Below, one piece after another: positions 3,266 to 4,137 of a DNA stretch of 44,576 nucleotides. Position 1 is the stretch's first letter, and every line of letters starts with the position of its first letter. Under the pieces are notes generated by a model, which searched no databases, was not told the DNA's origin, and was given only the letters and a program-made list of their open reading frames with translations. The DNA is from Crocinitomicaceae bacterium (GTDB taxonomy: Bacteria > Bacteroidota > Bacteroidia > Flavobacteriales_D > Crocinitomicaceae), in assembly GCA_022447665.1 (NCBI GenBank), contig JAKVAQ010000039.1, positions 1-44,576 on the forward strand. Direction: 5' to 3'. Both the position numbers and the translations under genes were made by a program.

Positions 3266-3388
3266 GCCCCACTAGCCCAATTATTCATTGGGTTGCTAAT
3301 TCTCAAAGGAATTCATGAATCCTTTGGATTTGGCAGAGGCATGAGACTTAAAATCTCAACAGTCTAGGTTCGAATCCTAGGTGGGGTA
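3266..3388 (+). tRNA. aberrant tRNA-like gene (123 nt), anticodon TAA, with a roughly 48-nt insertion between the D-arm and anticodon arm
   Basis: 5' gccccac pairs with 3' gtggggt (G1-U72). The 3' part has a clean anticodon arm tgaga-cttaaaa-tctca and T-arm ctagg-ttcgaat-cctag. The D-loop lacks GG. The insert 3294-3341 contains the hairpin aaaggaattca/tgaatccttt. Confidence 0.25.
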
Positions 3389-3391
3389 TAC

Positions 3392-3464
3392 GGTGTTTTT
3401 AGTTTATGTGGTAAAATACCTCACTGTGAATGAGGAGAATAGGGTTCGAGCCCCGAAAACACCC
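3392..3464 (+). tRNA. tRNA-His (anticodon GTG); G-1 not encoded
   Basis: Acceptor GGTGTTT/AAACACC; anticodon arm cctca-ctgtgaa-tgagg; T-loop ttcgagc; discriminator C73; the nucleotide at -1 is C. Confidence 0.6.
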
Positions 3465-3539
3465 AAAGTATTATATAGTTTGAAGGGCGAGAAGTTTATC
3501 TCGAGCGGAGTCGAGAGAAGCCCCGAAAACACCCAATCA

Positions 3540-3661
3540 GGAACAGTAGCAAAGTTGGTCAATGCGACGGACTGAAATGAGGAACGAATTCAATGATATA
3601 ATTGAAAAAAGAATCGCTGAATTAAAATCCGAAGATATAGGTTCGATTCCTATCTGTTCCA
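3540..3661 (+). tRNA. tRNA-Phe-like (anticodon GAA) carrying a roughly 49-nt insertion after position 37
   Basis: Acceptor GGAACAG/CTGTTCC (7 Watson-Crick pairs, A73); D-loop with GG; anticodon stem cgga...tccg enclosing ctgaaa + insert + a (mature loop CUGAAAA, compare E. coli tRNA-Phe UUGAAAA); T-arm atagg-ttcgatt-cctat. The insert 3578-3626 is flanked by ctgaaat/ctgaatt direct repeats. Confidence 0.35.
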
Positions 3662-3667
3662 CAAAAT

Positions 3668-3787
3668 AGGAATATAGTTTAATGGATAAAACGCTGGAAT
3701 TAGCTCACGCTTGTTCAGATTTATTGGAGTTCATGAATACTTCGTATTTCGACTCCAGTAATACGAGTTCGAGTCTTGTTATTCCTA
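3668..3787 (+). tRNA. tRNA-like gene with a roughly 55-nt insertion in the anticodon loop (mature loop would read anticodon TCG, Arg)
   Basis: Acceptor AGGAATA/TATTCCT (7 Watson-Crick pairs); D-arm gttt-aatggata-aaac with GG; anticodon stem ctgga (3694-3698) pairs with tccag (3754-3758) across the insert; T-arm acgag-ttcgagt-cttgt. Confidence 0.3.
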
Positions 3788-3963
3788 CAGTTAAAAACTA
3801 CGCAAATTAATTGCGCAGAAGGTTTACACCTTTGAGATGTCGAAAGACGAAAACGTTCTTTAAAGTATTAAAAGTATTGGCGAATAAACCGTTTGATGTA
3901 TTTAATCATCATGTTGCAAGTTGATGCAGAAGTGTATTTCAATATTGTATTGAAGTTTTTAGT

Positions 3964-4029
3964 CAATTGCCCTGAGGTGGGTACAGTAATAACCTCTCGA
4001 AAGTGCAGGTTCGAATCCTGCTTGTCGTA
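3964..4029 (+). pseudogene. tRNA fragment/chimera (5' end like tRNA-Gln, non-matching 3' acceptor)
   Basis: ttgccctg 5' strand as in tRNA-Gln, T-arm gcagg-ttcgaat-cctgc, but the 3' strand ttgtcgt has no 5' partner; it pairs instead with the downstream cgacaa as a hairpin. Confidence 0.3.
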
Positions 4030-4137
4030 ACGACAATGGCGGAATGGCAGACGCGCTAGATTTAGGCTCTAGTTTTTAATTGGTTAAGCGTCCCAGTTGA
4101 TCTGGGAAGTAAGGTGGTTCGATTCCATCCCTTTGTG
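4030..4137 (+). tRNA. aberrant type-II tRNA-Leu-like (anticodon TAG) with an over-long variable region (about 40 nt) and mismatched acceptor; likely a pseudogene
   Basis: D-arm tggcggaatggcagacgc; anticodon arm ctaga-tttaggc-tctag (G37); variable region contains tcccag/ctggga hairpin; T-arm ggtgg-ttcgatt-ccatc; the acceptor acgacaa versus cctttgt pairs at only 4 of 7 positions. Confidence 0.3.

What the first reader, a model, noticed from the sequence alone, without database searches (positions are those of the whole stretch)
3266..4137. Four over-long tRNA-like genes with 48-55 nt internal insertions (intron-like or mini-insertion elements) sharing a GAATTCATGAAT-like core
The units at 3540-3661, 3668-3787, 3266-3388 and 4030-4137 have matching 7-nt acceptor strands (the first two are fully Watson-Crick) and correct D- and T-arms. 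They are 108-123 nt long because of an internal insert.

- In 3540-3661 the insert (3578-3626) sits exactly after anticodon position 37. Its removal leaves loop CUGAAAA (Phe-GAA), and it is flanked by ctgaaat/ctgaatt direct repeats.
- In 3668-3787 the stem ctgga/tccag brackets a 55-nt insert, and removal leaves a loop reading TCG.
- The unit at 3266-3388 carries its insert between the D-arm and anticodon arm.
- The unit at 4030-4137 carries its insert in the variable arm.

Three inserts share a palindromic core (ggaattcatgaatcc, ggagttcatgaatac, cgaattcaatga) with internal hairpins. Bacterial tRNA introns are normally large group I introns. A roughly 50-nt insert at the canonical 37/38 position is archaeal/eukaryotic-like. 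Alternatively these are miniature insertion elements that target tRNA anticodon regions. Either would be unusual.
Basis: partly seen in the sequence, partly recalled or inferred. Interest (0 to 1): 0.8.

Follow-up and report, generated by a model that had tools for sequence, protein, structure and literature searches.

The report
Mini insertion elements inside tRNA genes
Three of the four over-long "tRNAs" are real tRNA genes of an accessory bacterial tRNA array, each interrupted in a loop by a ~47-base mobile mini-element that can sit in either orientation; they are not archaeal-type introns, and the fourth unit is a separate conserved tRNA-mimic RNA next to a Band-7 gene.

Summary
Partly confirmed and reinterpreted.

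**The three interrupted genes.** Units 3540-3662 (Phe-GAA), 3668-3788 (Arg-TCG) and 3266-3388 (Leu-TAA) are genuine tRNA genes carrying discrete inserts of 48-49 nt. Insert-free orthologues or alleles exist in related contigs.

**Context.** The genes belong to a conserved Bacteroidota tRNA array that elsewhere lies in RtcB / RNA-ligase / Band-7 operons. The window is probably bacterial, not phage.

**What the inserts are.** A covariance model built only from copies in other genomes was searched against the window.
- Its three best hits are the Pro insert on the + strand (E=3e-8), the Arg insert on the − strand (E=6e-5) and the Leu insert on the − strand (E=0.025).
- Each insert has a 46-47-nt core flanked by AA..AA (TT..TT when reversed). 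Removing the core plus one dinucleotide restores a normal loop.
- The same family sits in other tRNA loops, in intergenic DNA and inside a group II intron ORF in many Bacteroidota genomes.
- There is no bulge-helix-bulge motif and no ribozyme match.

**Best reading.** These are DNA-level miniature mobile elements that prefer T-loop-like target sequences. RNA-level removal is untested.

**Unit 4030-4137.** This is not an insert-bearing tRNA. It is part of a conserved, circularly permuted tRNA mimic, probably the predicted "b7a-tRNA".

The parts
2167..3788 (+). Accessory tRNA array: Ser-TGA, Ser-GCT, Cys, Pro-like*, Tyr, Pro, Glu, Gln, Leu-TAG, Leu-TAA*, His, Phe*, Arg-TCG* (* = interrupted gene). 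None of the genes I read encodes CCA after the discriminator.
   Evidence: ARAGORN and Rfam. The same gene order is found in arrays of the bacterial contigs L020, L049, L022 and L046, where the array lies between RtcB/RlaP/PrfH genes and a Band-7 gene.
2524..2648 (+). Pro(TGG)-like tRNA gene interrupted in the T-loop by an F1 element in sense orientation. Core 2585-2631, flanked by AA at 2583-2584 and 2632-2633.
   Evidence: Model R1 hit at 2583-2632 (+), 40.4 bits, E=2.8e-8. Orthologous interrupted genes exist in L022 and L020. Acceptor pairs covary between the window and L022 (sequence reading).
3266..3388 (+). tRNA-Leu(TAA) gene interrupted in the D-loop by an F1 element in reverse orientation. 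Core 3283-3329, flanked by TT at 3281-3282 and 3330-3331.
   Evidence: Model R1 hit at 3281-3331 (−), 16.8 bits, E=0.025, full length. The 48-nt indel against the insert-free L020 Leu-TAA gene restores the D-loop AATTGGCAGA.
3540..3662 (+). tRNA-Phe(GAA) gene interrupted in the anticodon loop by a 47-nt element of similar architecture (family not demonstrated). Core 3577-3623, flanked by AA at 3575-3576 and 3624-3625.
   Evidence: ARAGORN -i gives a 49-nt intron. There is a 49-nt indel against the L020 Phe gene. The same insert sits in the anticodon loop of a Tyr-bodied gene in L013. It is not matched by R1.
3668..3788 (+). tRNA-Arg(TCG) gene interrupted in the anticodon loop by an F1 element in reverse orientation. 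Core 3702-3747, flanked by TT at 3700-3701 and 3748-3749.
   Evidence: Model R1 hit at 3701-3749 (−), 27.1 bits, E=6.4e-5, full length, with a compensatory change in hairpin a. The L013 allele has stems and arms 100% identical and no insert. Removing the core plus one TT gives the loop ATTCGAC.
3983..4150 (+). Conserved tRNA-mimic RNA immediately upstream of the Band-7 gene. Elements in order: T-arm 4005-4021; closed acceptor hairpin 4022-4036 (TTGTCGT-A-ACGACAA); D-arm 4039-4055; anticodon-like arm 4056-4072; hairpin; second T-arm 4113-4129.
   Evidence: RNAalifold on 5 homologues gives 32 pairs, 13 with compensatory changes, including 4 of 5 pairs in the closed acceptor hairpin. It matches the description of the 'band 7-associated tRNA' and has the circularly permuted topology of YrlA (bioRxiv 10.1101/312249).
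2430..2517 (+). Spacer hairpin, a second T-arm-like hairpin and a duplicate of the 3' quarter of tRNA-Cys (repeat 2413-2429 = 2501-2517).
   Evidence: Sequence reading. Conserved in L022, where the duplicate covaries with that genome's own Cys gene.
2884..2967 (+). Spacer plus a duplicate of the 3' quarter of tRNA-Pro (repeat 2867-2886 = 2948-2967), with an 8-nt expanded T-loop.
   Evidence: Sequence reading. Conserved in L022.
3119..3184 (+). 48-nt segment plus a duplicate of the 3' quarter of tRNA-Gln starting at A58 (second copy 3167-3184). Shares the core GAGAAGTTTAT..GAGCGRAGTCGA with the His case.
   Evidence: 2 matches, 0 expected. Absent in L022.
3467..3536 (+). 52-nt segment plus a duplicate of the 3' quarter of tRNA-His (repeat 3449-3466 = 3519-3536). 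Presence/absence polymorphism.
   Evidence: Contig L008, from another sample, lacks exactly one 70-nt repeat unit (alignment A1). Absent in L022.
4406..5503 (+). SPFH/Band-7 (slipin) gene, the protein partner that defines this operon type.
   Evidence: Pfam PF01145, E=5e-25. Homologues at 54-76% identity sit downstream of RtcB-linked tRNA arrays.

Best explanation
The over-long units are tRNA genes of an accessory, probably chromosomal tRNA array of a Flavobacteriales bacterium. This is the array type linked to RtcB / RNA-ligase / Band-7 RNA-repair operons.

Four of its genes (Pro-like, Leu-TAA, Phe, Arg-TCG) have been hit at the DNA level by very small non-coding mobile elements, here called F1.

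**Anatomy of an F1 element**
- A 46-47-nt core: a 5' hairpin (AUGC-UUU-GCAU type), then UUCAYGAAC, then an A-rich stretch, then a 3' strand (GUGAGU) that can pair back to AUUCAC.
- It inserts at an AA dinucleotide, which afterwards appears on both sides.
- The preferred target resembles the T-loop box (..TCG-AA-TCC..).
- It can insert in either orientation.

**Consequence for the tRNAs.** As encoded, the interrupted genes give RNAs 48-50 nt too long in a functional loop. Most likely they do not yield normal tRNAs, and this is tolerated because the array is redundant with housekeeping tRNAs.

**Shown:** discreteness of the inserts, family membership of three of them, both orientations, the junction repeats, and spread across the phylum.

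**Inferred:** the transposition mechanism (the enzyme is unknown) and loss of tRNA function.
For: 1. Insert-free counterparts exist. The L013 Arg allele has stems and arms 100% identical, and the L020 Phe and Leu-TAA orthologues differ by single indels of 48-49 nt.
2. Model R1 was built only from 12 copies in other genomes. Its three top hits in the whole window, both strands, are exactly the Pro insert (+, E=2.8e-8), the Arg insert (−, E=6.4e-5) and the Leu insert (−, E=0.025). All three are full length, and the next hit has E=1.4.
3. Hairpin a shows compensatory changes among the copies: AUGC/GCAU, AUAC/GUAU, AUCC/GGAU.
4. Removing the core plus one AA/TT restores canonical loops: AATTGGCAGA, CTGAAAA, ATTCGAC and TTCAAAT (sequence reading).
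5. The exact 22-mer of the family occurs at 23 loci in GTDB Bacteroidota genomes, mostly outside tRNAs. In one of them (L044), reading the sequence shows the element inside a group II intron maturase ORF, where removing it restores the reading frame; the L035, L036 and L024 copies share the same flanking sequence.
6. Other arrays carry F1 in other genes. It is in the Phe T-loop in L046. In L039 it is in the Val T-loop in sense orientation and in the Arg-TCT anticodon loop in reverse orientation, at the same TT33-34 site as in the window.
7. A second family shows the same behaviour. The L020 Ser-TGA and L020 Glu anticodon-loop inserts are reverse complements of each other (z=9.8, 28/36 identical).
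8. The three window F1 copies and the L022 copy share the variant TTCATGAA, where all 12 copies used to build the model have TTCACGAA. This points to spread within this lineage.
9. The Pro-like gene shows drift expected of a disabled gene. In L022 its anticodon is TAG, and by my own pairing of the L022 sequence the acceptor stem has a G7·A66 mismatch.
Against: - No transposase or other mobilising enzyme was identified.
- The element has no terminal inverted repeats, so it is not a textbook MITE.
- All 19 inserts I read across 7 arrays lie in D-, anticodon- or T-loops and none in stems. This could mean selection for a still-functional cloverleaf (splicing or a functional expansion) rather than target preference. 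The count is by inspection and biased towards recognisable tRNAs.
- The exons of Phe, Arg and Leu are structurally intact.
- The arrays are genetically linked to RtcB, the ligase that joins tRNA exons in archaea and animals.
- The Phe insert is not detectably related to F1. Its similarity is architectural only.
- No expression data are available.
Confidence: 0.68

Rival explanations
1. The inserts are true RNA-level introns. An unknown endonuclease cuts the pre-tRNAs on both sides of the insert, leaving 2',3'-cyclic phosphate and 5'-OH ends. RtcB, encoded in this operon type, rejoins the exons. This would be a bacterial, protein-dependent tRNA splicing pathway, possibly conditional on stress.
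For: - Orthologous arrays lie directly next to RtcB, and also next to RlaP, PrfH or Rnl-type ligases.
- All inserts seen are in loops and the cloverleaf stems are intact.
- The hairpins and the palindrome UUCAUGAA read the same in RNA whichever way the element is inserted.
- A Tpt1/KptA gene (12282-12818) and a Macro gene (11144-11653) lie 7-9 kb away.
Against: - No strict BHB brackets any insert, and there is no ribozyme or intron family hit.
- The elements occur in both orientations and outside tRNAs. The AA/TT duplications are a signature of DNA insertion.
- No nuclease is shared across the operon variants.
- The window itself has no RtcB.
- The Pro-like gene is drifting in L022.
Confidence: 0.1
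2. The insert-bearing genes are not meant to become tRNAs. They are tRNA-like scaffold, decoy or sensor RNAs of the RtcB/Band-7 repair system, like YrlA or the b7a-tRNA. In this reading the added hairpins or palindromic loops have a function such as protein binding or RNA-RNA kissing.
For: - The locus does encode a conserved tRNA mimic next to Band-7, with strong covariation.
- The Cys and Pro 3'-quarter duplications are conserved with covariation between the window and L022.
- Hairpin a of F1 is maintained by compensatory changes.
Against: - Which gene carries an insert differs in every array examined: the window, L020, L022, L013, L046, L048 and L049.
- Insert-free alleles with identical stems and arms exist in close relatives.
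- The same element sits in unrelated genomic contexts. Hairpin conservation is equally expected if the hairpin is needed for mobility.
Confidence: 0.15
3. The inserts are non-specific junk: filler DNA from repair or slippage in decaying pseudogenes, with only chance resemblance among them.
For: Short local repeats flank the inserts. The arrays show many rearrangements, including a chimeric Tyr/Phe gene in L013 and partial duplications.
Against: - Three inserts match, over their full length, a model built from other genomes.
- The cores have a constant length of 46-47 nt and constant AA/TT junctions.
- TTCATGAA is strongly enriched in the inserts.
Confidence: 0.04

Closest known systems
Miniature non-autonomous insertion elements of bacteria (MITEs; REP/PATE-type hairpin elements mobilised by IS200/IS605-like or RAYT enzymes)
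   Same: Very short and non-coding, in multiple copies and in both orientations. Hairpin-forming, with a short A/T junction repeat. Filled and empty sites occur in relatives, and the family is spread across many species.
   Different: Only about 47 nt long. No terminal inverted repeats. No linked transposase identified. Recurrent insertion inside tRNA gene loops at a T-loop-like target.
Rickettsia palindromic elements (RPEs), which are inserted inside protein-coding and structural RNA genes (from my own knowledge: Ogata et al. 2000)
   Same: Small palindromic selfish elements tolerated inside otherwise intact genes, including RNA genes.
   Different: RPEs are 100-150 nt, restricted to Rickettsia, and typically in-frame in ORFs. 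There is no sequence relation.
Archaeal/eukaryal BHB tRNA introns, including the non-canonical D- and T-loop positions of Thermoproteales
   Same: Short inserts in D-, anticodon- and T-loops of tRNA genes. RtcB is genetically nearby in related loci.
   Different: No BHB motif, both orientations, copies outside tRNAs, and AA/TT target duplication. No EndA-type endonuclease was seen.
[quoted passage not shown]
   Same: For 3983-4150: it sits directly upstream of the Band-7 gene. It has T-arm, D-arm and acceptor-like elements, with a closed acceptor hairpin giving a circularly permuted topology.
   Different: The Rfam YrlA model does not match it. There is no Rsr/Ro60 gene. It carries a second T-arm and an anticodon-like arm. 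The original b7a-tRNA description could not be read here.
Long accessory tRNA arrays (L-arrays) co-regulated with rtcB (PMC8421152)
   Same: A dense array of redundant tRNA genes linked to RtcB, with frequent insertions, duplications, deletions and pseudogenes.
   Different: That work is on cyanobacteria and does not describe loop-inserted mini-elements.

Membership tests
BHB (archaeal/eukaryal) tRNA intron | Bulge-helix-bulge motif (3-nt bulge, 4-bp helix, 3-nt bulge) placing both splice sites | tested here: not met
   A script searched all four units. No strict hBHBh' motif excises the observed inserts. The strict motifs found excise other segments of 17-90 nt at unrelated positions.
BHB (archaeal/eukaryal) tRNA intron | Fixed sense orientation; the element exists only as part of the transcript | tested here: not met
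   F1 is antisense in Arg and Leu and sense in Pro. Both orientations occur in L039.
BHB (archaeal/eukaryal) tRNA intron | Splicing endonuclease (EndA/Sen) in the genome | not testable with these tools
   No such Pfam family appears among the genes called across the window's contigs or in the related operons. The full genome is not available.
Group I (self-splicing) tRNA intron | Ribozyme core P1-P9, typically 200 nt or more | tested here: not met
   The inserts are 48-50 nt. There is no Rfam intron or ribozyme hit at gathering threshold or at E<=10.
MITE | Target-site duplication | tested here: met
   An AA..AA or TT..TT dinucleotide flanks every core. Removing the core plus one copy restores normal loops or the reading frame.
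MITE | Terminal inverted repeats | tested here: not met
   The ends are ATGC... and ...GAGT and are not complementary (alignment A5).
MITE | Related autonomous element or transposase with the same ends | not tested
None was seen in the loci fetched.
IS200/IS605-type PATE / REP-like hairpin element | Subterminal hairpin(s), with strand-specific insertion 3' of a short target and no true duplication | tested here: inconclusive
   There is a 5' subterminal hairpin with covariation. The AA at both junctions fits either a 2-bp duplication or insertion 3' of ..AA by an element that itself ends in ..AA. Both orientations occur within one array, which argues against strict strand bias.
b7a-tRNA / YrlA-like tRNA mimic (unit 4030-4137 only) | Encoded next to a Band-7 gene in an RtcB-type operon | tested here: met
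   It lies directly upstream of SPFH (4406-5503). Orthologous loci carry RtcB. The window itself has no RtcB.
b7a-tRNA / YrlA-like tRNA mimic (unit 4030-4137 only) | tRNA-like T-arm and D-arm with an acceptor stem closed by a loop | tested here: met
   RNAalifold on 5 homologues shows compensatory changes in 4 of 5 pairs of the closed acceptor hairpin and in 13 of 32 pairs overall.
b7a-tRNA / YrlA-like tRNA mimic (unit 4030-4137 only) | Match to the Rfam YrlA model RF02553 | tested here: not met
   The only YrlA match at E<=10 is a 16-bit chance hit at 3615-3723.

The most novel reading that the evidence does not exclude
The ~47-nt elements could be mobile mini-introns. After inserting into tRNA loops at the DNA level, they would be cut out of the pre-tRNA by an as yet unknown endonuclease, and the exons rejoined by the RtcB ligase of the same operon family. 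Bacteroidota would then have an enzymatic, possibly stress-gated, tRNA splicing pathway. That would explain why every insert sits in a loop of an otherwise intact cloverleaf.
Probability: 0.08. Interest if true: 0.9.

Novelty: new variant of a known kind. Interest (0 to 1): 0.55.

Why it matters
- If correct, this defines one of the smallest mobile DNA elements seen in bacteria, at about 47 nt. It is spread across Bacteroidota, and its preferred target looks like the universally conserved tRNA T-loop box.
- It explains why tRNA finders miss genes in these arrays.
- It shows that the accessory tRNA arrays attached to RtcB/Band-7 RNA-repair operons are being actively remodelled.
- It gives a concrete, testable system for an old question: whether bacterial RtcB ever acts as a tRNA splicing ligase. 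The test is whether these interrupted pre-tRNAs are processed.
- It provides five covarying homologues of the predicted, never validated Band-7-associated tRNA mimic.

Tried and rejected
- **Phage origin.** Megablast against phages found nothing. Distant blastn matched only individual tRNAs, best in Cellulophaga phages, which have normal-length tRNAs. An IMG/VR search with the SPFH protein and with the E/G motif found nothing. The synteny with bacterial RtcB operons argues against a phage.
- **Ribozymes or known RNA families in the inserts.** None found.
- **BHB motif.** None fits the inserts.
- **Shared core tested window-wide with a degenerate pattern.** Not significant. The exact 8-mer test and the covariance model were needed.
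- **Conserved mini-ORF MLCIHEH in the F1 element.** Rejected. The invariance of the first 22 nt is an artefact of the exact-match search, and the reading frames end at different points.
- **F1 as a promoter or ECF-type site.** The spacing is variable, so this is unlikely.
- **Literature searches** for the sequence, and for miniature elements in tRNA T-loops, returned nothing. Burroughs & Aravind 2016 could not be read.
- **Reverse-transcription or template-switch origin of the 3'-quarter duplications.** Considered because they start at A58. There is no test for it, so this is left as unexplained.
- **Running ARAGORN -i on fetched loci directly.** Most loci were not available to my scripts, so I exported them through alignments.
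Full report
**1. What is at the coordinates**

Window 2167-3788 is a dense array of tRNA genes, all on the + strand. Default ARAGORN and Rfam find 10 genes. With introns allowed, ARAGORN also calls 3540-3662 with a 49-nt insert and 3668-3788 with a 48-nt insert and anticodon TCG.

Reading the sequence shows more than the finding listed:
- A fifth interrupted gene: a Pro(TGG)-like tRNA at 2524-2648 with about 50 nt in its T-loop.
- Four intact tRNAs (Cys, Pro, Gln, His), each followed by a spacer and a second copy of its own 3' quarter, starting at A58 of the T-loop.

**2. Where the window comes from**

There is no close phage relative. The protein downstream of the array (4406-5503) is an SPFH/Band-7 slipin. 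NCBI assigns it to a Crocinitomicaceae MAG.

Its homologues at 54-76% identity lie in bacterial contigs, downstream of RNA-repair genes and a tRNA array:
- L020: WYL, RtcB, RlaP, RlaP, array, RNA ligase, ncRNA region, Band-7.
- L013: WYL, RtcB, DUF4145, a reduced array, an RLIG1-like ligase, Band-7.
- L047-L049: RlaP, RtcB, PrfH, TPR, then (in L048 and L049) an array, then Band-7.

The arrays share the window's gene order: Ser, Ser, Cys, Tyr, Pro ... Leu, Leu, His, Phe, Arg. By my reading, the 600-nt leader upstream of the window's array is nearly identical to that of L013.

Other genes on the window's contigs suggest a conflict or immunity island: a HEPN_AbiU2 gene just upstream of the window, and inside it DMP19, SUKH, NADase_transloc, NAD salvage genes, Tpt1, Macro and NADAR.

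I conclude that this is an accessory bacterial tRNA array of the RtcB/Band-7 type. Arrays of this general kind are known to be linked to rtcB (PMC8421152).

**3. The inserts are discrete and have insert-free counterparts**

Global alignments show:
- Window Arg against L013 Arg: stems and arms 100% identical, with one 48-nt indel; only the anticodon-loop bases differ (ACG in L013, TCG here).
- Window Phe against L020 Phe: one 49-nt indel in the anticodon loop.
- Window Leu-TAA against L020 Leu-TAA: one 48-nt indel inside the D-loop.

Conversely, L020 carries inserts in genes that are intact in the window: Ser-TGA, Ser-GCT and Glu. Other arrays differ again:
- L022 has its Arg insert in the T-arm.
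- L046 has an insert in the Phe T-loop.
- L048 has inserts in the Tyr D-loop and in the Gln, Leu and Lys T-loops.
- L013 has a Tyr-bodied gene with three inserts. One of them is the same element as the window's Phe insert.

Which gene is hit therefore differs from array to array. By my inspection, all 19 inserts lie in D-, anticodon- or T-loops.

**4. The inserts belong to element families that insert in both orientations**

The 22-mer at the start of the Pro T-loop insert (AAATGCTTTGCATTCAYGAACA) occurs exactly at 23 loci in GTDB Bacteroidota genomes, including Flavobacterium, Sphingobacterium, Olivibacter and Myroides. Most are not in tRNA arrays.

In L044 the element sits inside the C-terminal maturase part of a group II intron ORF. 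There the sequence reads ...GGWAIAQ[51 nt]SPILGTTITLQRLKK..., and removing the element restores the frame. The L035, L036 and L024 copies share the same upstream flank in the alignment.

I built a covariance model from 12 copies, none from the window, and scanned the whole window on both strands with filters off. The three best hits are:

| Position | Strand | Insert | Bits | E-value |
|---|---|---|---|---|
| 2583-2632 | + | Pro T-loop | 40.4 | 2.8e-8 |
| 3701-3749 | − | Arg anticodon loop | 27.1 | 6.4e-5 |
| 3281-3331 | − | Leu D-loop | 16.8 | 0.025 |

All three are full length. The next hit has E=1.4. The 5' hairpin shows compensatory changes among the copies (AUGC/GCAU, AUAC/GUAU, AUCC/GGAU).

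The same model finds copies in other arrays. In L039, one copy lies in sense orientation in the T-loop of a Val gene. Another lies in reverse orientation in the anticodon loop of an Arg-TCT gene, at TT33-34. That is the same site and orientation as in the window's Arg-TCG gene.

A second family (CTNAGCRAAGCGATC...) behaves the same way. The L020 Ser-TGA and Glu anticodon-loop inserts are reverse complements of each other (z=9.8). A third family is an 18-19-nt palindrome, TCCCGATAGCTATCGGGA, which recurs in D- and T-loops.

**5. Junction rule**

On the element strand, every core is flanked by AA on both sides:
- Pro: core 2585-2631.
- Leu: core 3283-3329, with TT on the + strand.
- Phe: core 3577-3623.
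- Arg: core 3702-3747, with TT on the + strand.
- The maturase site reads GCGC-AA-[core]-AA-AGTCC.

Removing the core plus one dinucleotide gives TTCAAAT, AATTGGCAGA (identical to the L020 D-loop), CTGAAAA and ATTCGAC.

The targets resemble the T-loop box:
- TCG-AA-TCC in T-loops.
- GTCG-AA-TTCC for Arg on the reverse strand.
- CTG-AA-AATCC for Phe.

This is a signature of DNA insertion, either a 2-bp duplication or insertion 3' of AA. It may by itself explain why tRNA loops are hit.

The three window F1 copies and the L022 copy share TTCATGAA, where all 12 model-building copies have TTCACGAA. In the window, 3 of the 4 copies of this 8-mer lie inside inserts. This suggests spread within this lineage.

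The Phe insert has the same length, the same AA junctions, an ATG start and a closing helix (AATTCA/TGAATT). It does not score with the model, so its family membership is not shown.

**6. Not introns of a known kind**

- There are no Rfam intron or ribozyme hits.
- No strict BHB motif brackets any insert.
- The positions vary, and both orientations occur.
- Copies exist outside tRNAs.
- No splicing endonuclease appears among the called genes.

RNA-level removal cannot be excluded without expression data. The RtcB linkage and the loop-only distribution keep it alive at low probability.

**7. The fourth unit**

The 5' acceptor strand ACGACAA (4030-4036) does not pair with the downstream CCTTTGT, judging from my own base-by-base reading. 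It pairs perfectly with TTGTCGT (4022-4028), which follows a T-arm at 4005-4021.

Five homologues (window, L013, L020, L048, L049) give a consensus of T-arm, closed acceptor hairpin, D-arm, anticodon-like arm, hairpin and second T-arm. Compensatory changes occur in 13 of 32 pairs, including 4 of 5 pairs of the closed acceptor hairpin.

This is the circularly permuted topology described for YrlA. It fits the predicted "band 7-associated tRNA" next to RtcB/Band-7 genes (bioRxiv 10.1101/312249). The Rfam YrlA model does not match it.

**8. Unexplained**

The duplications of the 3' quarter all start at A58.
- The Cys and Pro cases are conserved in L022, where each duplicate covaries with the parent gene.
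- The Gln and His cases share a core motif and are absent in L022.
- The His case is polymorphic among near-identical contigs: L008 lacks one 70-nt unit.

Unequal recombination at the T-loop, or a further T-loop-targeting element, are both possible. I could not decide between them.

**9. Verdict**

The intron interpretation is not supported. The miniature-element alternative is supported and made specific. The system is a new variant of a known kind, small selfish hairpin elements, in an interesting place: the tRNA arrays of RNA-repair operons. A low-probability, high-value alternative remains, namely RtcB-dependent splicing.

Noticed in passing
window 9322-16873: A cluster of NAD/ADP-ribose and RNA-end genes lies 5-12 kb from the array: Nudix, NADAR, Macro, DUF4291, Tpt1/KptA RNA 2'-phosphotransferase (12282-12818), 2OG-Fe(II) oxygenase, metallophosphoesterase, nucleoside deoxyribosyltransferase, NAMPT and a PRPP-synthase-like gene. 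This could be an RNA-repair or anti-ADP-ribosylation module (Pfam hits).
   Followed up: no
window 3449-3536 vs L008: Contig L008, from another sample, lacks exactly one 70-nt unit (an 18-nt repeat plus a 52-nt segment) after tRNA-His. It also carries a T>C change in the His T-stem region (window 3440). L005 and L008 carry a C>T change inside the Arg insert (window 3716).
   Followed up: partly
L004/L006 vs window ~2330: Two contigs diverge completely from the window upstream of the T-loop of tRNA-Ser(GCT). This places a recombination breakpoint inside a T-loop (alignment A1).
   Followed up: no
window 3188-3262 and 3266-3388; L020, L022, L046: The tRNA-Leu genes in these arrays are about 75 nt and lack the long variable arm normally found in bacterial tRNA-Leu. 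L049 Leu-TAG keeps a 10-nt arm. Whether LeuRS charges them is unknown.
   Followed up: no
window 2738-2806; L022 425-485: A conserved hairpin-forming spacer lies after tRNA-Tyr (AAAGACAT..ACTGTCTCT..ATGTC), with its ends paired. Its function is unknown.
   Followed up: no
L020 9158-9359; L046 ~3400-3205 (minus strand): Another conserved RNA of about 200 nt lies between the array and Band-7 in relatives. ARAGORN -i calls it a 'tRNA' with a 110-116-nt insert. It contains the conserved block TTTGCAGAAGCACCGAAAT..AAAGTAGGGAAGCG.ATTTAGAGCCAATCTG and ends in a T-arm. I did not look for it in the window.
   Followed up: no
L013 8827-9381; L020 8336-8974 vs window 3789-3960: Relatives carry an RNA ligase gene (RLIG1-like or PF09414) between the Arg gene and the tRNA mimic. 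The window has lost it and keeps only the flanking non-coding sequence.
   Followed up: partly
L044 2450-3000 (minus strand): In Flavobacterium cucumis, all three small element motifs occur within about 300 nt at the 3' end of a 5'-truncated group II intron: F1, TCCCGATAGCTATCGGGA and ATCGCTTCGCTAAG. The elements may hitch-hike on, or be targeted by, group II introns.
   Followed up: no
L013 8566-8727: A chimeric gene with the acceptor, variable arm and T-stem of tRNA-Tyr. Its anticodon loop carries the Phe-type loop plus insert, and it has extra inserts in the D- and T-loops. This looks like patch-wise gene conversion between array members.
   Followed up: partly
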